In this document: positions 1 to 51,364 of the stretch, in pieces | Position numbering within the stretch: position 1 is the first letter of the stretch | How the letters are laid out: each line of letters opens with the position of its first letter | Origin: a virus | Lineage: Duplodnaviria; Caudoviricetes | Length of the DNA stretch: 51,364 nt | Virus record (IMG/VR): IMGVR_UViG_3300033487_000006 | Location: 1-51,364 of that record | Reading direction: 5' to 3' (one strand) | Translations under genes and position numbers: made by a program | Notes under the pieces: generated by a model | Told to the model about the DNA's origin: nothing | Seen by the model: the letters and a program-made list of their open reading frames with translations, nothing else | Database searches by the model: none

Positions 1-12
1 CCGTTCCTCACC
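1..12 (-). repeat. Terminal direct repeat, putative 12-nt cohesive end (cosN; minus strand GGTGAGGAACGG), left copy
   Basis: CCGTTCCTCACC at 1-12 is identical to 51353-51364; lambda-like flanks; adjacent to terminase genes on circularisation. Confidence 0.9.
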
Positions 13-454: not shown

Positions 455-690
455 TTCCTTGGCGTCCCGTCCGGCCGGATCAGCCCGACCTCCGCGTCTA
501 CGACGCTCCGCACCTCGTAGTGCCACCGCTTGCGACCAGGCCACCACTCGGCGGTGACCGCCAGGTGCTGCCCATCGTGCTCGAACACCGAGGCGACGTG
601 GAGAAGTGGGTCGGGCCCCTTCGGGCCCTCCACGCCGCGCAGCTTGTCACCGACCTTCGGTGGCCACCACGGCGGCAGTTGGTCTCTCAT
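451..690 (-). CDS. Hypothetical protein
   Basis: ATGA coupling; protein-like composition (MRDQLPPWWPPKVGDKL). Confidence 0.6.
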   Translation of the reverse strand: MRDQLPPWWPPKVGDKLRGVEGPKGPDPLLHVASVFEHDGQHLAVTAEWWPGRKRWHYEVRSVVDAEVGLIRPDGTPRK

Positions 691-953
691 CGACACGTGC
701 ACTTCCCTACGGCGCGCAGGCAGCCGTGGCATCGCTGCGTGTAGCCGTCCGCGTCGTACGACCCGACGTACGTGCCCCACTTGCCGCATGGGCAGCGCGC
801 CGGCACTGCGACCTTGCCGCGCCGCGCGAGCTCGGCGGTGAGCTCCTCGTCGCTCAGATCCCGCGCGCTCGCTTTCCGACCTCCGCCTGAACCGACGGAG
901 CCGCCGTGGCCGCCGGCGACCGAGTAGGTGATGCCTTCGTTGCTGTCGTCCAT
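687..953 (-). CDS. Small Cys-rich hypothetical protein
   Basis: AAGGAGG RBS; CPC, CxxC and CTC motifs. Confidence 0.65.
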   Translation of the reverse strand: MDDSNEGITYSVAGGHGGSVGSGGGRKASARDLSDEELTAELARRGKVAVPARCPCGKWGTYVGSYDADGYTQRCHGCLRAVGKCTCR

Positions 954-975
954 GGGGTTCCTCCTTCGTGCCAGC

Positions 976-1527
976 TTACTTCCCGACCTCGAGCGGTAGC
1001 ACGCGCACGAACGTATCCCCAAACGACCGGCCCCCGCGCTCGGCCACCGCGTCGGCCTCGCCCTCGTGCAGGAGCGCATCGACCGGACGTGAGCCGCGCA
1101 GCTCGTCGATGGGGAGCCGCGCCTTGCCGCGCCGGCGGAACACGCCCTTGTGGCCGCTCTTCATCGAGGACACGAACGAGCCCTTGATCAGCGTGCGCTT
1201 GCCCCGGTTGACCTCGACGGATACGCCCTTGGCCGTCTGCCGATGTGGGTACGCGACGAGCGGCACCGGCTCGCCCGACACGTCGAGGGCCCACTCCATG
1301 GCGGCGATGTTCCCGCCCCTGGCTCGGCGCAGCGTCATCGCGCGCGTGATGTACCGCGACTTGATCCGCTTCCTGGCCCGGATGCGCTTCGAGGCCTCGG
1401 ACCGCATGTCGCGCAGGGCGGTCGCGCCGGCCTTGCGCAGGGTGCGCTTGAGCGCGGCCTTGAGCGGGCTGGCCTCGAGGGCGGCGATCTGGCTGCGGTC
1501 CCAGTTGGCGGTGATGGCTACGGGCAT
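976..1527 (-). CDS. Lambda gpZ-like minor tail/neck protein
   Basis: Basic protein with KGSFVSSMKSGHKGVFRRRGKARLPI motif typical of the minor tail Z family. Confidence 0.7.
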   Translation of the reverse strand: MPVAITANWDRSQIAALEASPLKAALKRTLRKAGATALRDMRSEASKRIRARKRIKSRYITRAMTLRRARGGNIAAMEWALDVSGEPVPLVAYPHRQTAKGVSVEVNRGKRTLIKGSFVSSMKSGHKGVFRRRGKARLPIDELRGSRPVDALLHEGEADAVAERGGRSFGDTFVRVLPLEVGK

Positions 1528-48229: not shown

Positions 48230-48256
48230 AGGATCACGGCGGTCGTAGGCTGTCAA
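48230..48256 (-). promoter_or_regulatory. Late-promoter motif TTGACA-N15-GATCCT
   Basis: -35 box contains the terminase stop codon; 10 nt to ATG. Confidence 0.8.
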
Positions 48257-50256
48257 CGCCGGCGCCCGAGCCAGCCGCCGCCGCCCCGCGGGCGGCCGCC
48301 CCAGATGCTGGGCCTGGGCGGCGGCCGCCGCGCGGGAGCCGCGGGCGCGATCTCGCTCGCCGCCGCGGGCGCGGGCGAGCTCGTCGATCTCGACGAGGCC
48401 GGAGCCGGCGCCGCGGGCGCGGAGCTCGATCCCTTGGCCGGCAGCCGGTCGATGCCGAGCACGTTCGCCGCGGCGCGCGCGAGGATCCGTGCGTCCAGGT
48501 AGTGGTTCTCGCGATTCGGCAGGACCTGCCACTCGTGCTTCGCGCGCCGCGTGCGCCGGTTCACGACCGTCACCAGGTGCTCGGCAGTGAGCTGCTGAAA
48601 GTAGTCCTCGTCGTACTCCGGGAAGTGGCAGTATCCCGGCGGCGGATCGCCCGCGCCGCGGCGCAGCCGGAGCCAGCCGTAGAGCTCGGCCTTCGCGAGG
48701 TCGACGCCGATCGGCCAGACCTTGTAGCCGCGCTGCATCCGCCGGCCGCGCACGGTCACGTCGACCGGCGACGGCGCGCCGACCAGCGCGCGGAAGCCCG
48801 CCACGCCCTTGCACGCGATCACGCGCGTCATCGGGTGCTGGCGCGCCCAGCCGTAGACGACCTGGGTGTTGTAGCCGCTGTCCACCGCGAGCATCGCGAT
48901 CCGGTGCTCGCCGCCGGCGGCGCCGGGGAACGCGCGCCCGAGCAGCTCGTCGAGCTGCCTCCATGGACTCCCCGGCTGCGAGGCCTCCAGCGAGGTGTCG
49001 CCCCAGAGGATGCTCTTCTCGACGGAGAAGCTCTCCTTGTCGGCGCCCCACCCGACGACCTCGTACATGATCCGATCCTTCTGGACGTCAGCGCCCGCGG
49101 TCACAACGAGCACGCCGTCGGGCACGCTGCCGATCGCGTAGCTCTCGCGCCGGTCGTACAGCCGCTCCCAGTCCGGCGCCTCGCCGAGCTCCTTCCAGGT
49201 TTCGCCGAGCATCGTGTTGACGAACGTGCGGAGGGTCTCGGGCCGCTTCTTCGCCTCGAGGAACTCGGCGGCGATCTGCGCCCACGTCGCGTTGGGGGAG
49301 AGGCTGTAGGCCGCCCAGATGTGGAACGACGCGTGGCCGGTGAACGCGCCCTCCGCGCGCCACTCGCCGGCCTCGATCATCGCGCGCTTGTCCTCCTCCT
49401 CGATCGCGCAGCCGCACGCCCGGCACATGAAGCACGTCTCTTCGGGCTTGCCCTCGGGCCAGCGCATGACGTGGCCGGCGGGGGCCGCCTCCGGATCGTC
49501 GGTCTCGTCGCGCAGCCGGAACCTGAGGTAGTCCATGTGGCCGCAGTGCGGGCACGGCACGTAGTAGCGCCGCCGGTCGCCGGCGAGGAACAGCTCCTCG
49601 ATCCGCGACGAACCCGCCACGAGCGGCGTCGAGCCGGCGATGATCTTGCGGTTCCAGTAGTACTCGGCGCGCTTCTCCCCGAGCTTCACCGGATCGCCCT
49701 CGGCGCCGGCGCTCGGGGGGTACGCGTCGACCTCGTCGAAGATCACGACGCGCCGGCTCACCATGCGGAGTCCGCTGCCGCTGTTCGCGCCGACCATCGA
49801 GAGCAGGCCGCCCGGGAACGTCTTGTGCGTAGTGCTGTTGGCGCTGGACCTGACGCTCGCCTGCTTCACCAGGCCCGCGAGCGCCGGCACGTCGCGCAGC
49901 ATCGGCGCGATCTCCTCCTTGCTGTAGATCTTTGCCGTCTCCACCGTCGGCTGCACGACGAGGAGCGGGCACGGATCCGCCGCCATGAAGTAGGCGATCG
50001 CGGCGTTGATCCCCTTCGTGTAGCCGACGCGCGCGCTCTTGATCATCGACACGCGCTCGACGGCGGGATCCGTGATCGCGTCGAGGACGCCGCGCTGGTA
50101 CGGCAGCGTCCGCCAGCGGCCCGGATCCGCCGAGCTCTCGGCCGAAAGCCGGAAGTGGCGGTCGGCCCACTGGGAGAGCGACAGCTTGGGCGGCGGGCGC
50201 AGCGCAGCCCACGCGCTGTCGAGCCAGCTACTCGCCGCGGTCGCCGCCGCCACCAC
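48253..50256 (-). CDS. terL: Terminase large subunit, lambda GpA family
   Basis: KSARVGYT, VIFDEVDAYP...EGDP, GSTP, YYVPCPHCG, AGADVQ, AVDSG, QLTAE. Confidence 0.96.
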   Translation of the reverse strand: MVAAATAASSWLDSAWAALRPPPKLSLSQWADRHFRLSAESSADPGRWRTLPYQRGVLDAITDPAVERVSMIKSARVGYTKGINAAIAYFMAADPCPLLVVQPTVETAKIYSKEEIAPMLRDVPALAGLVKQASVRSSANSTTHKTFPGGLLSMVGANSGSGLRMVSRRVVIFDEVDAYPPSAGAEGDPVKLGEKRAEYYWNRKIIAGSTPLVAGSSRIEELFLAGDRRRYYVPCPHCGHMDYLRFRLRDETDDPEAAPAGHVMRWPEGKPEETCFMCRACGCAIEEEDKRAMIEAGEWRAEGAFTGHASFHIWAAYSLSPNATWAQIAAEFLEAKKRPETLRTFVNTMLGETWKELGEAPDWERLYDRRESYAIGSVPDGVLVVTAGADVQKDRIMYEVVGWGADKESFSVEKSILWGDTSLEASQPGSPWRQLDELLGRAFPGAAGGEHRIAMLAVDSGYNTQVVYGWARQHPMTRVIACKGVAGFRALVGAPSPVDVTVRGRRMQRGYKVWPIGVDLAKAELYGWLRLRRGAGDPPPGYCHFPEYDEDYFQQLTAEHLVTVVNRRTRRAKHEWQVLPNRENHYLDARILARAAANVLGIDRLPAKGSSSAPAAPAPASSRSTSSPAPAAASEIAPAAPARRPPPRPSIWGGRPRGGGGWLGRRR

Positions 50257-50764
50257 GACTGGCGAGCTCCTCCAGCGCTTCGCGGATCAGCTCGTCAACC
50301 ACCGGAACGACCTCGGCCGCGACGTGGGGCAGTCGCTGCCCCACGCGCGAGGGGACCGCGAGCAGCCGCGTCTTGACCAGCGAGAACGCCGCGATCACGT
50401 CATTGCGCGCGGCCTCGGCGGGCACGAGCTCGCCGCGCCGCTCGGCCAGCTCGAGCTCGGCGAGCTCGGCCTGGGCGGTCTCGCGGCGCGCCGCCGCCGC
50501 TTCGCGGAGCGCGCGGCTCGCGTGGTAGTCGGCCGGGCCGGGCGCCGCGCCCGGCGCCGGCGCGGGCGCGGCGGGCATGTGGTCAACGCGGGGCTGGGTG
50601 TTCGCGTCCCACTCGCGATCGGCGAGCTCGGGGTCCGCGATCTTCGGCGCGCCGCGGACGCGGGTCACCGAGTCGCGCAGGCGACCGTCCGTGACCGCCT
50701 TGCTCACCGCGGGCGTCGATACGCCACGGCGCCGCCCGTACGCGGCCAACGACATCGGCTTCAT
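50228..50764 (-). CDS. terS: Terminase small subunit (Nu1-like)
   Basis: N-terminal HTH; AELAELELAERRGELV...LLAVPSR coiled coil; overlaps terL. Confidence 0.88.
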   Translation of the reverse strand: MKPMSLAAYGRRRGVSTPAVSKAVTDGRLRDSVTRVRGAPKIADPELADREWDANTQPRVDHMPAAPAPAPGAAPGPADYHASRALREAAAARRETAQAELAELELAERRGELVPAEAARNDVIAAFSLVKTRLLAVPSRVGQRLPHVAAEVVPVVDELIREALEELASRGGGGDRGE

Positions 50765-51264
50765 AGCCGGATGGCCTCCGCCACGAGCGCCGCGATCGCC
50801 TCGCGTACCTCTGGAGTGTCGGCGAACCACTCTCCCCTGATGCGATGCTCCTCGAGACGAAGATGGATCTTCGCCTCGAGGTCGTACCCTCCGGCGACGC
50901 ACGCGACCACGTCGAGCCTGAACGGCGAGGCGCATTGCAGCGCCTCCAGCCGCTTGGCCAGGTTGACGGCGACGCCGATCTTGATCGGGCCAGCCGCGCA
51001 CCGGATGAAGTAGACCACCTGGCCTACGCGTTCGCCGGGAAGTCTCGCTTGCCCCGGGTCACCCATTGCGCGTGGATGATCGGCCCTTGGTCTGGTGTTC
51101 GCGTCCCACTCGCGATCGGCGAGACCATGGTCTCGGATCTTCGGCTGACCGTTGACGACAACCACCGAGTCGCGTAGCCGCCCGGCGGCGATCGCCTTGC
51201 TCACGGCCTCGGCCGAGACCCCTCGACGACGCGCGTAGGAACGGAGCGACAGCACCTTGGCCAT
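50761..51264 (-). CDS. TerS-type HTH domain fused to GIY-YIG (T5orf172/MUG113-like) nuclease
   Basis: N-terminus 41/58 identical to TerS; VYFI...IKIG....KRL..LQ...E..IH.....RIRGEWF. Confidence 0.85.
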   Translation of the reverse strand: MAKVLSLRSYARRRGVSAEAVSKAIAAGRLRDSVVVVNGQPKIRDHGLADREWDANTRPRADHPRAMGDPGQARLPGERVGQVVYFIRCAAGPIKIGVAVNLAKRLEALQCASPFRLDVVACVAGGYDLEAKIHLRLEEHRIRGEWFADTPEVREAIAALVAEAIRL

Positions 51265-51273
51265 GACCCCAGC

Positions 51274-51300
51274 ACGATCACGTGCCGGCCCCGTCGTCCA
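51274..51300 (-). promoter_or_regulatory. Degenerate late-promoter motif TGGACG-N15-GATCGT
   Basis: 9 nt upstream of first late gene. Confidence 0.55.
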
Positions 51301-51301
51301 G

Positions 51302-51328
51302 CGTTAACCGTTAACCTAAGCCGTCAAC
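51302..51328 (-). repeat. Three GTTRACG repeats (cosB/R-site candidates)
   Basis: CGTTAAC at 51302 and 51309, CGTCAAC at 51322, just inside the cohesive end. Confidence 0.5.
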
Positions 51329-51352
51329 GCGATCGACTAGCGAGAAGCCGCG

Positions 51353-51364
51353 CCGTTCCTCACC
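51353..51364 (-). repeat. Terminal direct repeat, putative cohesive end, right copy
   Basis: Identical to 1-12; followed on minus strand by CGCGGCTTCTCGCTA. Confidence 0.9.

What the first reader, a model, noticed from the sequence alone, without database searches (positions are those of the whole stretch)
50228..51264. GIY-YIG nuclease carrying a copy of the terminase small-subunit DNA-binding domain, encoded between cos and terS
Seen: the first late gene and TerS share 41/58 identical N-terminal residues, including an exact 30-bp DNA repeat (50597-50626 and 51094-51123). One continues into a T5orf172-like GIY-YIG domain, the other into the TerS coiled coil, and they are ATGA-coupled. Known: the Nu1 N-terminal wHTH binds cosB R sites, and HK97-type phages use an HNH cofactor with terminase. 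Inference: a cos-targeted nuclease that is a packaging cofactor, a weapon against co-infecting relatives, or a selfish element homing the cos-terS module. Divergent HTH residues (SAEAV versus STPAV) may shift specificity.
Basis: partly seen in the sequence, partly recalled or inferred. Interest (0 to 1): 0.82.

Follow-up and report, generated by a model that had tools for sequence, protein, structure and literature searches.

The report
TerS-headed T5orf172 nuclease beside cos
A lambda-like phage from a wetland metagenome carries, between its packaging site and its terminase genes, a rare accessory gene that joins a copy of the terminase DNA-reading head to a homing-type nuclease domain, probably aiming that nuclease at the packaging sites of related phages.

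Summary
ORF A (51264..50761, minus strand, 167 aa) has an N-terminal winged helix-turn-helix 69% identical (42/61) to the N-terminus of the adjacent TerS. A disordered linker joins it to an intact T5orf172/MUG113 (GIY-YIG clan) domain. ORF A overlaps terS by ATGA and lies 88 bp from a 12-bp terminal repeat that sits in a cosN-like block conserved in relatives.

The gene is real and under selection: four other fusions exist, with both domains conserved and the linker free. It is also rare and dispensable. None of 97 related terS loci has it, and a near-identical phage in a second sample carries a 396-bp in-frame deletion of it.

The ORF A recognition helix (SAEAV) is the type that accompanies tandem GTTGAC heptads upstream of terS in 9 of 9 loci. 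The resident phage has GTTAAC heptads and a unique STPAV TerS.

Best reading (about 0.45): a homing-type, cos-directed nuclease with a captured DNA-binding head, analogous to ICP1 Odn. It would be aimed at relatives' cosB rather than serving as a packaging cofactor. No binding or cleavage has been shown. I class it as a new variant of a known kind.

The parts
51353..51364 (.). 12-bp terminal direct repeat (identical to window 1-12). Putative cohesive end (cosN), duplicated at both contig ends.
   Evidence: Prefix equals suffix only at k=12. It lies in the block GCGGGT[A/G]AGGAACGGCGC, conserved upstream of terS in L068, L168, L171, L174 and L176, and contig L168 starts there. An independent Logan contig of run X1 stops at 51351.
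1..12 (.). The other copy of the 12-bp terminal repeat.
51302..51328 (-). Heptad array (candidate cosB R sites). In gene orientation it reads GTTGACG, then 6 nt, then GTTAACG GTTAACG.
   Evidence: Three of the window's 10 CGTYAAC matches fall within these 27 bp. The homologous position in relatives holds tandem GGTTGAC GGTTGAC.
51265..51352 (-). 88-bp leader between cosN and the ORF A start. It is colinear with the cos-to-terS leader of relatives, including GTGATCGTG just before the ATG.
   Evidence: blastn colinearity with L068 from the 12-mer through the ORF A N-terminal domain (277 nt, 65%). Sequences read.
50761..51264 (-). ORF A, 167 aa plus stop: a TerS-type wHTH fused to a T5orf172/MUG113 domain.
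51076..51264 (-). ORF A residues 1-63: winged HTH of the TerS (Nu1/MerR-like) type, with recognition helix VSAEAVSKA.
   Evidence: 42/61 identical to own TerS and 81% to a foreign TerS, P0004. The AF2 model shows helix-helix-hairpin-helix. VIA matches to 6hn7_A (Z 6.1), BldC, MerR-family proteins and excisionases.
51022..51075 (-). ORF A residues 64-81: disordered, non-conserved linker.
   Evidence: pLDDT below 50 for residues 60-79. Between 0 and 3 identities over 10-13 aligned columns among the five fusions.
50764..51021 (-). ORF A residues 82-167: T5orf172/MUG113 (GIY-YIG clan) domain with the family's conserved residues Y85, K95, G97, R105, E130, H134, E145, W146 and F147.
   Evidence: Pfam hits. 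The window residue is the commonest one in all 22 columns that are at least 80% conserved among 130 homologues. VIA matches to HIGLE 7wme (Z 6.4), Slx1 6seh (Z 6.2) and I-TevI 1ln0 (Z 4.5).
50228..50764 (-). terS, 178 aa: wHTH (recognition helix VSTPAVSKA) plus a C-terminal helical domain. Its ATG overlaps the ORF A stop (ATGA).
   Evidence: PHROG 57, E 3.1e-24. 29-sequence alignment A3. Sequence read.
48253..50256 (-). terL, gpA type (ATPase plus endonuclease domains).
   Evidence: Pfam GpA_ATPase and GpA_nuclease. PHROG 15.
50597..50626 (-). 30-bp exact repeat, copy in terS (codons LADREWDANT).
51094..51123 (-). 30-bp exact repeat, copy in ORF A.
51151..51157 (-). Single inverted heptad (CGTCAAC in gene orientation) inside the ORF A N-terminal coding region. 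A heptad sits at the equivalent place in terS of L007. The window's own terS copy has none here.
51188..51197 (.). 10-bp direct repeat GCGATCGCCT: upper edge of the natural 396-bp deletion.
50792..50801 (.). 10-bp direct repeat GCGATCGCCT: lower edge of the natural 396-bp deletion.

Best explanation
ORF A is an accessory, mobile, homing-endonuclease-like gene sitting in the cos-terS junction of a lambda-like (gpA terminase) phage, probably of a Kofleriaceae-like myxobacterium. Its product has two independently folded parts joined by a floppy linker.

- The N-terminal part is a copy of the TerS winged helix-turn-helix that reads the heptad repeats of cosB.
- The C-terminal part is a T5orf172/MUG113 (GIY-YIG clan) nuclease domain.
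- It lacks the TerS C-terminal domain, so it cannot be a terminase subunit.

Inferred mechanism: the head docks on tandem GTTGAC heptads next to cosN, and the tethered nuclease nicks or cuts nearby DNA. The SAEAV head matches the heptads of related phages better than the resident GTTAAC array, which is served by a diverged STPAV TerS. The preferred targets are therefore co-infecting relatives, or cos-bearing satellites, that lack the gene. Damage or recombinational repair at their cos-terS junction would favour inheritance of this phage's cos-ORF A-terS module.

Shown here: the domain make-up, its position, conservation of both domains, rarity, dispensability, and the pairing of head type with heptad type.

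Inferred only: DNA binding, cleavage, target choice, and any gain in inheritance.
For: Architecture:
- Pfam MUG113 and T5orf172 hits above cut-off on residues 92-156.
- 42/61 identity of residues 3-63 to TerS.
- The AF2 model has two domains with a disordered linker at residues 60-79.
- VIA places the C-terminal domain on the GIY-YIG nucleases HIGLE, Slx1 and I-TevI, and the N-terminal domain on MerR/Xis/TerS-type wHTHs.
- The window residue is the commonest one in all 22 columns that are at least 80% conserved among 130 T5orf172 homologues.

A selected protein, not a relic:
- Four other full-length fusions exist (P0002, P0003, P0066, P0067).
- Among the five, the N-terminal domain is 61-70% identical. 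The C-terminal domain is 61-68% identical (32-40% for P0067). The linker shows 0-3 identities in 10-13 columns.
- dN/dS between the window's two N-terminal-domain copies is 0.30, with dS 0.90.

Not an assembly artefact: an independent Logan contig of 13,963 nt reproduces 50228-51351 with 0 differences.

Mobile and accessory:
- 0 of 8, 0 of 9 and 0 of 80 related terS loci carry a T5orf172 C-terminal domain or a second N-terminal domain.
- L068 is colinear from cosN through the N-terminal domain and again from the TerS C-terminal domain into terL. Only the linker, the T5orf172 domain and the second N-terminal domain are extra.
- ORF A GC3 is 0.76 (NTD), 0.56 (linker) and 0.86 (CTD), against 0.92 for terS (P 1e-4 for the NTD).
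- In run X2 a 314-nt contig joins 51188 directly to 50791. This is a 396-nt in-frame deletion at a 10-bp repeat that leaves a 35-aa remnant.

Target logic:
- Tandem GTTGAC heptads lie upstream of terS in 9 of 9 SAE[AS]V loci and 12 of 22 loci with Glu at that position, against 0 of 57 others.
- Some of those loci have TerL only 34-39% identical to the window's.
- The window has GTTAAC tandems, and a TP dipeptide like its TerS's occurs in 0 of 62 TerS homologues.

Precedent in print:
- ICP1 Odn is a T5orf172 nuclease whose N-terminal domain is 42% identical to the PLE RepA_N domain. It cuts the PLE origin only if the iterons are present (PMC8263062; passages read).
- T5orf172 homing genes have modular, swappable DNA-binding domains, and 35% of 468 neighbourhoods hold a terminase gene (10.1101/2023.03.23.533998; passages and section 23 read).
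Against: - No assay of binding or cutting exists for this protein or any of its four relatives.
- The resident genome keeps one GTTGAC heptad in cosB and one inverted copy inside ORF A. Self-targeting is therefore not excluded, and the effect of the single G-to-A difference on binding is unknown.
- The head-heptad association is confounded by relatedness. Some rows were also chosen through a VSAEAVSK pattern. Ten of 22 Glu-type loci lack the tandem.
- The N-terminal-domain tree is unresolved. 'All fusions one clade' (p-AU 0.24) and 'ORF A NTD sister to own TerS NTD' (p-AU 0.17) are both not rejected. Whether the head was captured from a foreign or the cognate TerS is open.
- Structural matches are only moderate (Z 4.5-6.4, below the tool's own caution line of 8). 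Foldseek gave no match at E <= 0.001.
- The deletion variant rests on one contig of depth 2.5.
- ORF A is translationally coupled to terS, as one would expect of a gene that works with the terminase.
Confidence: 0.45

Rival explanations
1. Packaging cofactor: the protein docks on cosB beside TerS and helps terminase cut or mature cos, as the HNH protein gp74 does in HK97.
For: It is the first gene after cos and is ATGA-coupled to terS. It shares the TerS DNA-binding head. Relatives carry other nuclease genes at the same junction: HNH in L009 and L173, HNH_3 in L011. Barth et al. discuss HK97's HNH and note that homing and end-processing roles need not exclude each other (passage read).
Against: The gene is absent from 97 of 97 related terS loci. 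gpA-type TerL has its own endonuclease domain. A near-identical natural variant has lost 132 of its 167 codons. Its head type differs from the resident TerS and heptads.
Confidence: 0.12
2. Domesticated DNA-binding protein without cutting, in the manner of the satellite repressor CapR. It would occupy cosB heptads to time or tune TerS access or late transcription, or to block packaging of competitors by occupancy alone.
For: T5orf172 homing-type proteins have been domesticated as repressors (CapR, mentioned in section 23 of 10.1101/2023.03.23.533998). A head without the TerS assembly domain would compete with TerS for cosB. Odn lacks a conserved His/Tyr in the first helix of its GIY-YIG domain that most GIY-YIG nucleases have, so departures from the classical residue set occur in this family.
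Against: Every strongly conserved residue of the T5orf172 domain is kept. Odn, with the same domain type, is an active nuclease, and its E180A mutant is listed as predicted to abolish catalytic activity.
Confidence: 0.15
3. Anti-satellite nuclease: the target is a cos-bearing phage satellite that steals this phage's (or its kin's) packaging machinery, as Odn targets PLE.
For: This follows the same logic as Odn: a satellite that must carry GTTGAC-type cos sites to be packaged cannot easily lose them. An unexplained TerS-like gene without a gpA terL beside it exists in a Kofleriaceae MAG (L069).
Against: No satellite with such a cos site was identified here. L069 was not characterised further.
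Confidence: 0.1
4. A by-product of a duplication or insertion in the terS 5' end, now decaying. On this view the N-terminal coding DNA is kept only because cosB elements lie inside it.
For: The source's gene caller called only 101 aa from Met67 (P0001). ORF A GC3 is lower than elsewhere in the genome. A deletion variant exists. An inverted heptad lies in the N-terminal coding DNA, at a place where L007's terS also has one.
Against: Five independent sequences keep the frame. They conserve the head as well as the nuclease domain while the linker drifts. dN/dS is 0.30. All family-conserved residues are intact.
Confidence: 0.08

Closest known systems
Odn (origin-directed nuclease, gp88) of Vibrio phage ICP1
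   Same: A C-terminal T5orf172 nuclease domain is joined to an N-terminal DNA-binding domain copied from another element's site-specific DNA-binding protein. The nuclease is thereby aimed at that protein's repeated binding sites (PMC8263062, passages read).
   Different: The captured head here is a TerS wHTH, not RepA_N. The presumed target is a packaging site, not a replication origin. The gene sits in the packaging module next to the donor-type gene. Identity to the donor-type domain is higher (69-81% against 42%). Activity is untested.
Free-standing T5orf172 homing endonuclease genes of phages (Barth, Dunham and Seed 2023)
   Same: Same nuclease domain, modular swappable DNA-binding region, location beside a terminase gene, and patchy distribution.
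   Different: In that survey 200 of 229 such genes carry CapR/DUF723/DUF4397-type zinc-finger DNA-binding domains. This one carries a wHTH shared with the neighbouring essential gene. I found no mention of a TerS-derived head in the passages and section read. Their supplementary tables could not be opened.
I-TevI and other GIY-YIG homing endonucleases
   Same: A GIY-YIG-clan catalytic domain is tethered by a flexible linker to a separate sequence-reading domain. The C-terminal domain aligns with the I-TevI catalytic domain 1ln0 (Z 4.5, 66 residues).
   Different: The domain order is reversed: the nuclease is C-terminal here, whereas in I-TevI it is N-terminal (recalled). The T5orf172 subfamily has KIG in place of YIG. 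There is no intron context.
HK97 gp74 HNH endonuclease, a terminase cofactor
   Same: A small nuclease gene adjacent to cos and the terminase genes (mentioned in the discussion read; the original paper is recalled, not read).
   Different: A different nuclease fold (HNH). gp74-type genes are reported as conserved in their phage group, whereas ORF A is absent from 97 of 97 related loci. The terminase here is gpA-type with its own nuclease.
Lambda Nu1-type terminase small subunit
   Same: An N-terminal MerR-like wHTH that reads repeats next to cosN. JGI names several homologues 'phage terminase Nu1 subunit'. The window's TerS hits PHROG 57.
   Different: ORF A has no TerS C-terminal domain and does not hit PHROG 57. 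Pfam Phage_Nu1 was not matched by either protein at E <= 1. The heptads (GTTRAC) are unlike lambda's R sites (recalled).

Membership tests
T5orf172 / MUG113 domain proteins (Pfam GIY-YIG clan) | Match to PF10544 and/or PF13455 above the gathering score | tested here: met
   PF13455 51.1 bits (cut-off 22.3). PF10544 31.4 bits (cut-off 20). Both on residues 92-156.
T5orf172 / MUG113 domain proteins (Pfam GIY-YIG clan) | Family-conserved residues (Tyr of the first strand, K-I-G, Arg, Glu/His, G-E-W-F) | tested here: met
   The window residue equals the commonest residue in all 22 columns that are at least 80% conserved among 130 homologues. These include Y85, K95, G97, R105, E130, H134 and E145-W146-F147.
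T5orf172 / MUG113 domain proteins (Pfam GIY-YIG clan) | GIY-YIG-like fold | tested here: inconclusive
   In the AF2 model (pLDDT about 84-88 in the C-terminal domain) the best matches for that domain are GIY-YIG nucleases: 7wme Z 6.4, 6seh Z 6.2, 1ln0 Z 4.5. All are below the tool's caution level of Z 8. Foldseek gave nothing at E <= 0.001.
T5orf172 / MUG113 domain proteins (Pfam GIY-YIG clan) | Endonuclease activity | not testable with these tools
   Needs purified protein.
Homing endonuclease gene (free-standing) | Nuclease domain plus a separate sequence-specific DNA-binding domain | tested here: met
Homing endonuclease gene (free-standing) | Presence/absence polymorphism among related genomes with conserved flanks, next to an essential gene | tested here: met
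   Absent from 0/8, 0/9 and 0/80 related terS loci. Flanks are colinear with L068. A deletion allele occurs in run X2.
Homing endonuclease gene (free-standing) | Cuts the gene-less allele and is copied into it | not testable with these tools
   Needs cleavage mapping and co-infection crosses.
Odn-like chimeric nuclease (captured DNA-binding head) | [quoted passage not shown] | tested here: met
   69% identical to own TerS N-terminal domain. 81% to TerS P0004.
Odn-like chimeric nuclease (captured DNA-binding head) | Cleavage depends on that protein's repeated binding sites | not testable with these tools
   Indirect evidence only: SAE[AS]V heads co-occur with tandem GTTGAC in 9 of 9 loci.
Terminase small subunit (PHROG 57 / Nu1-like) | N-terminal wHTH | tested here: met
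Terminase small subunit (PHROG 57 / Nu1-like) | C-terminal helical assembly / TerL-binding domain | tested here: not met
   ORF A gives no PHROG 57 or 141 hit, while TerS does. Residues 82-167 are the T5orf172 domain. ORF A is therefore not a TerS.
HK97 gp74-type HNH packaging cofactor | HNH motif | tested here: not met
   No HNH family among ORF A's Pfam hits at E <= 1.
HK97 gp74-type HNH packaging cofactor | Conserved beside cos/terminase throughout the phage group | tested here: not met
   0 of 97 related loci carry it.

The most novel reading that the evidence does not exclude
The phage wages war at the level of the packaging signal. It carries a nuclease armed with the ancestral, common TerS head (SAEAV, reading tandem GTTGAC heptads), which cuts or disables the cosB of co-infecting relatives or cos-stealing satellites. 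Its own packaging pair has moved to an orthogonal specificity (STPAV TerS with GTTAAC heptads), which acts as built-in immunity. That would be a poison-and-escape system built from a duplicated terminase head. It would also be a driver of cosB/TerS specificity diversification, mirroring what Odn does to satellite origins.
Probability: 0.2. Interest if true: 0.85.

Novelty: new variant of a known kind. Interest (0 to 1): 0.6.

Why it matters
T5orf172 nucleases that borrow another protein's DNA-reading head are known from one worked example: Odn, which cuts satellite replication origins. A version that borrows the terminase small-subunit head would extend that principle to packaging signals, the one sequence a cos phage or its satellites cannot do without.

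It would give a concrete reason why TerS heads and cosB repeats diversify together. It may also explain why the cos-terS junction collects nuclease genes: HNH genes sit there in three relatives.

The head-heptad pairing found here (SAEAV with GTTGAC, SSVAV with GTTCGC, STPAV with GTTAAC) is also a testable recognition code for a large, uncharacterised family of gpA-type packaging modules.

If the protein turns out inactive or merely regulatory, the finding reduces to an unusual domain shuffle.

Tried and rejected
**Genomic context of the other fusions.** P0002 and P0003 lie on contigs of 651 and 928 bp.
- A scan with the C-terminal-domain alignment found 44 metagenome loci and 9 viral loci, all at most 51% identical. 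None had a TerS head, TerS C-terminal domain or gpA terL within the fetched flanks (0 of 53).
- P0067 gave nothing in viral contigs.
- The window's TerS alone gave one distant locus.

**GenBank phages.** tblastn against 50,697 records matched 47, all through the nuclease domain. The single hit with 95% coverage (H1, 31% identity) spans two annotated genes beside ribonucleotide reductase and is not a fusion.

**N-terminal-domain phylogeny.** 68 rows and 63 columns left it unresolved. AU tests rejected neither 'fusions form one clade' (p 0.24) nor 'ORF A NTD plus own TerS NTD' (p 0.17).

**Other family and structure searches.**
- NCBIfam: no family for either protein.
- PADLOC: only a weak hit to PDC-S57 (E 3.8e-4), not pursued.
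- PDB by sequence profile: 0 matches at E <= 10.
- Foldseek against PDB: nothing at E <= 0.001.

**HNH protein of L009.** Its HTH shows no significant likeness to ORF A (E 0.11), so it is not a second TerS-head fusion.

**Expression.** No RNA holder was listed, and only Logan contigs could be laid. Nothing can be said on expression, and read ends at cos could not be seen. A second joint in X1 (50557 to 50775, side 25) was set aside as probably a repeat or another organism.

**Literature.** Searches for 'T5orf172' (36 papers) and for at least 3 of 'GIY-YIG', 'small terminase', 'cos site', 'homing endonuclease' (14 papers) showed no title or abstract describing a TerS-head nuclease. PMC4205034 was checked by passages and is irrelevant. 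Supplementary tables of Barth et al. were not available and could list such an architecture.

Full report
**What the window is.** The window is an entire IMG/VR virus record of 51,364 bp, classed linear and 100% complete by CheckV. G+C is about 72%. The genes in question lie on the minus strand at the right end:
- ORF A, 51264..50761 (167 aa)
- terS, 50764..50228 (178 aa)
- terL, 50256..48253 (667 aa)

TerL carries Pfam GpA_ATPase (E 7e-78) and GpA_nuclease (E 9e-84), so this is a lambda-type terminase. TerS matches PHROG 57, 'terminase small subunit' (E 3.1e-24). The nearest genomic relatives of the packaging module are two Kofleriaceae MAG contigs; L068 has TerL 73% identical over 409 residues. 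One TerS homologue is named as coming from a Kofleriaceae MAG. The host is therefore probably a myxobacterium of that kind; this is an inference.

**The observation.**
- BLASTP of ORF A against TerS gives 42 of 61 identical residues (E 1e-25) over ORF A residues 3-63.
- At the DNA level there is a 165-nt direct repeat of 72% identity.
- The ORF A stop and the terS start overlap as ATGA.
- ORF A residues 92-156 match Pfam MUG113 and T5orf172 above their cut-offs.
- The source's own gene caller had called only the last 101 residues, from Met67 (P0001). Homologues from other sources were called at full length.

**Is cos really next door?**
- The first and last 12 bases of the record are identical, and no other prefix length from 5 to 199 equals the suffix.
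- In gene orientation the 12-mer GGTGAGGAACGG lies in a block, GCGGGT[A/G]AGGAACGGCGC, that recurs about 100 nt upstream of terS in L068, L171, L174 and L176.
- The same block forms the very first bases of contig L168, within 1 nt of the window's end. More diverged versions occur in L009, L071 and L172.
- An independent Logan assembly of the probable source run ends at 51351, two bases before the 12-mer. Contigs cannot prove a molecular end.
- A 12-nt terminal duplication is what end-repair of 12-nt cohesive ends would give. That, and lambda's 12-nt cohesive end, are recalled knowledge.

I take cos at the record's ends as well supported but not proven.

**The heptad array.** Between the 12-mer and the ORF A ATG lie 88 bp. 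In gene orientation they read GTTGACG, then 6 nt, then GTTAACG GTTAACG. This accounts for 3 of the window's 10 CGTYAAC matches within 27 bp. At the same place, relatives have tandem GGTTGAC GGTTGAC.

The heptad pair is a widespread feature of gpA-type modules. A scan of IMG/VR for the 16-mer matched 89 stretches, of which 80 loci were held and examined.
- 12 of the 80 carry it 0.43-0.72 kb upstream of a gpA-type terL that is only 28-41% identical to the window's, that is, at the start of terS.
- These often have a second, inverted cluster about 200 bp downstream.
- 3 more loci have it just beyond terL.

These arrays are the obvious candidates for TerS binding sites (cosB). That is inferred, not shown.

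**ORF A is a real, selected two-domain protein.**
- A word-indexed search of 5.8 billion proteins found 65 hits among 929 candidates. Only P0002 (163 aa, 63% identical) and P0003 (155 aa, 60%) cover both domains.
- A full HMMER scan of 1.84 billion representatives with the three-sequence profile found 48,405 hits at E <= 0.001. Among the best 150, only P0066 (154 aa) and P0067 (176 aa) span both the TerS-type head and the nuclease domain. P0067 has a more distant nuclease domain with a Cys-rich insert. P0163 spans the profile too, but its head is a different HTH.
- Among the five fusions the head is 61-70% identical and the nuclease domain 61-68% (32-40% for P0067). The linker shows 0-3 identities in 10-13 columns.
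- AlphaFold2 on the three-sequence alignment (mean pLDDT 77) gives a helix-helix-hairpin-helix head, a disordered stretch at residues 60-79, and an alpha/beta C-terminal domain.
- VIA-align puts the C-terminal domain on the GIY-YIG nucleases At-HIGLE (Z 6.4, 80 residues), Slx1 (Z 6.2) and I-TevI (Z 4.5). It puts the head on an entry from the Rpp/TerS study (6hn7_A, Z 6.1; which molecule that chain is I did not determine), BldC, MerR-family regulators and excisionases. These Z values are moderate by the tool's own yardstick.
- In an alignment of 130 nuclease-domain homologues, ORF A has the commonest residue in all 22 columns that are at least 80% conserved.
- Between the window's two head copies dN is 0.27 and dS 0.90, a ratio of 0.30. 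Only 35 of 61 third codon positions agree, so the duplication is old.
- The arrangement is not an assembly artefact: a 13,963-nt Logan contig reproduces 50228-51351 without a difference.

**It is rare, extra and dispensable.**
- None of 8 viral loci found through the head, 9 genome loci or the best 80 of 366 viral terS loci encodes a T5orf172 domain or a second head within the fetched flanks. A few of these 97 loci duplicate one another.
- In most of them terS is the first gene after the contig end or the cos block.
- Against L068 the window is colinear from the 12-mer through the ORF A head (277 nt, 65%), and again from the TerS C-terminal domain into terL (866 nt, 75.5%). What is extra is the linker, the nuclease domain and the second head.
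- The bases just before the ORF A ATG (GTGATCGTG...) match those before the terS ATG in L068 and L171. An inverted heptad lies in the ORF A head-coding DNA where L007's terS also has one, but not in the window's terS. By position, the ORF A head therefore occupies the ancestral terS start.
- ORF A has lower third-position G+C (0.76 head, 0.56 linker, 0.86 nuclease) than terS (0.92). That fits a gene with a different history from its neighbours.
- In a second sample of the same study (run X2), a 314-nt contig (depth 2.5) joins 51259..51188 (0 differences) directly to 50791..50557 (8 differences in 235). This is a 396-nt deletion between two copies of GCGATCGCCT. It is in frame and leaves a 35-aa remnant still ATGA-coupled to terS. 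It is one low-depth contig. A k-mer assembler does not join at a 10-nt repeat without reads across the joint (my inference). If real, a near-identical phage lives without the nuclease.

**Which DNA would the head read?** I tabulated the five residues at ORF A positions 17-21, the start of the recognition helix, against the DNA within 220 nt upstream of terS in 79 distinct loci.

| Head type at positions 17-21 | Loci with tandem GTTGAC at 7-bp spacing |
|---|---|
| SAE[AS]V | 9 of 9 |
| Any head with Glu at position 19 | 12 of 22 |
| All other heads | 0 of 57 |

Fisher P is 1e-8, not corrected for relatedness.
- The SAEAV rows include Bryobacterales-type modules whose TerL is only 34-39% identical to the window's. 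Head and heptad therefore travel together across distant terminases.
- Other close relatives pair other heads with other repeats: SSVAV with GGTTCGC x2, SAMAV with inverted GTCAAC x3, and AVESV with GGTGGAC x3.
- ORF A and two other fusions are SAEAV. P0066 is SPEAV and P0067 is SVEAV.
- The window's TerS is STPAV, a dipeptide seen in 0 of 62 TerS homologues, and its tandem heptads are GTTAAC.

The nuclease thus carries the common head type, while the resident packaging pair is the odd one out.

Caveats:
- Some rows were recruited through a VSAEAVSK pattern.
- The big SHVAV group is one distant clade.
- Ten Glu-type loci lack the tandem.
- One GTTGAC heptad remains in the window's own array.

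**Comparison with what is known.**
- The closest worked case is Odn of vibriophage ICP1. It has a T5orf172 domain with an N-terminal domain 42% identical to the RepA_N domain of the PLE satellite. It cuts the satellite's origin only when the iterons are present, and it drives origin/RepA_N swapping in the satellite (PMC8263062, passages read).
- Barth, Dunham and Seed report that T5orf172 homing genes have modular, exchangeable DNA-binding regions. 35% of 468 neighbourhoods contain a terminase gene. They also argue that the region upstream of terminase and cos is a hot spot for homing-type nucleases, discussing HK97's HNH cofactor as a possible domesticated case (abstract, passages and section 23 read).
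- In line with that, three relatives of this phage carry HNH genes at the same junction: L009 (HNH plus another kind of HTH), L011 (HNH_3) and L173 (HNH).

ORF A is therefore a member of the T5orf172 homing-type nucleases. Its head is of a kind not described in what I could read: a copy of the neighbouring essential gene's DNA-binding domain.

**Mechanism and odds.**
- I put about 0.45 on a cos-directed, homing-type nuclease. The head would dock on GTTGAC-type cosB arrays, and the tethered nuclease would cut nearby in genomes that lack the gene. The resident genome would be partly protected by its GTTAAC/STPAV pair and by the changed sequence downstream of the array.
- A packaging-cofactor role gets 0.12. 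Against it: the gene is absent from all relatives, gpA has its own nuclease, and the deletion allele exists.
- A non-cutting DNA-binding role gets 0.15. Against it: all conserved residues are intact.
- An anti-satellite role gets 0.10. No satellite was seen.
- Decay gets 0.08. Against it: both domains are conserved.

What is shown is anatomy, position, conservation, rarity, dispensability and the head-heptad pairing. Binding, cutting, target choice and any inheritance advantage are inferred.

**Verdict.** This is a new variant of a known kind. It is of good but not exceptional interest (0.6), with a bolder reading (a packaging-signal weapon with immunity by shifted specificity, probability about 0.2) that simple binding and cleavage assays could settle.

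Noticed in passing
L081, L086, L096, L097, L107, L112, L123, L125, L132, L135, L150, L155 (IMG/VR loci); window 51302-51328: Tandem GTTGAC (or GTTAAC) heptads sit at the start of terS in gpA-type modules whose TerL is only 28-41% identical to the window's. There is often a direct cluster plus an inverted cluster about 200 bp downstream, inside terS. This looks like a widely conserved cosB-like signal that I have not seen described.
   Followed up: partly
L009:1401-2207, L011:5276-5977, L173:3-542: Three relatives carry HNH-family nuclease genes directly upstream of cos/terS: Pfam HNH E 5e-13 with an HTH_17/MerR-like HTH in L009, HNH_3 E 4e-15 in L011, and HNH E 6e-10 in L173. The cos-terS junction is a nuclease-gene hot spot in this phage group.
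   Followed up: partly
Proteins P0068, P0070, P0071, P0074, P0077, P0109 and P0081: The TerS-type wHTH with the LADxEW motif also occurs as two tandem copies in small stand-alone proteins of 117-222 aa. It matches 14 stretches in a 1,964-aa protein (P0081, sequence not inspected). The head is therefore a mobile module beyond terminases.
   Followed up: no
L069:3974-4555 (Kofleriaceae MAG contig): A 193-aa TerS-like protein (head plus a TerS-like C-terminal region by eye) with no gpA terL hit downstream within 4 kb. It could belong to a satellite-like element or to another terminase type.
   Followed up: no
L062:44-3143 (low-GC IMG/VR contig): A 283-aa T5orf172 gene lies between a small ORF that looks like a small terminase subunit and a 594-aa ORF that looks like terL (judged by eye, not scanned). 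This is the classic homing-gene position inside a packaging operon.
   Followed up: no
L068:4001-4497: The TerS head and TerS C-terminal-domain hits lie in different reading frames, so this MAG's terS is frameshifted or mis-assembled.
   Followed up: no
window 50761-51264: The source's gene caller annotated only 101 aa from Met67 (P0001). Automated annotation thereby hides the TerS-like head, and similar fusions may be under-called elsewhere.
   Followed up: partly
window 976-1527 (minus strand): A Minor_tail_Z (GPZ) homologue (E 3e-6) lies near the opposite genome end. Two small ORFs between it and cos (451-789 and 687-1079, minus strand) have no Pfam match. L011 has a similar GPZ-like ORF upstream of its HNH gene.
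   Followed up: partly
window 50425-50580: Many short Logan contigs from both runs pile up on the Ala/Pro/Gly-rich, GC-rich linker-coding part of terS (depth spikes to 77-118). This is probably low-complexity cross-matching from other organisms.
   Followed up: no
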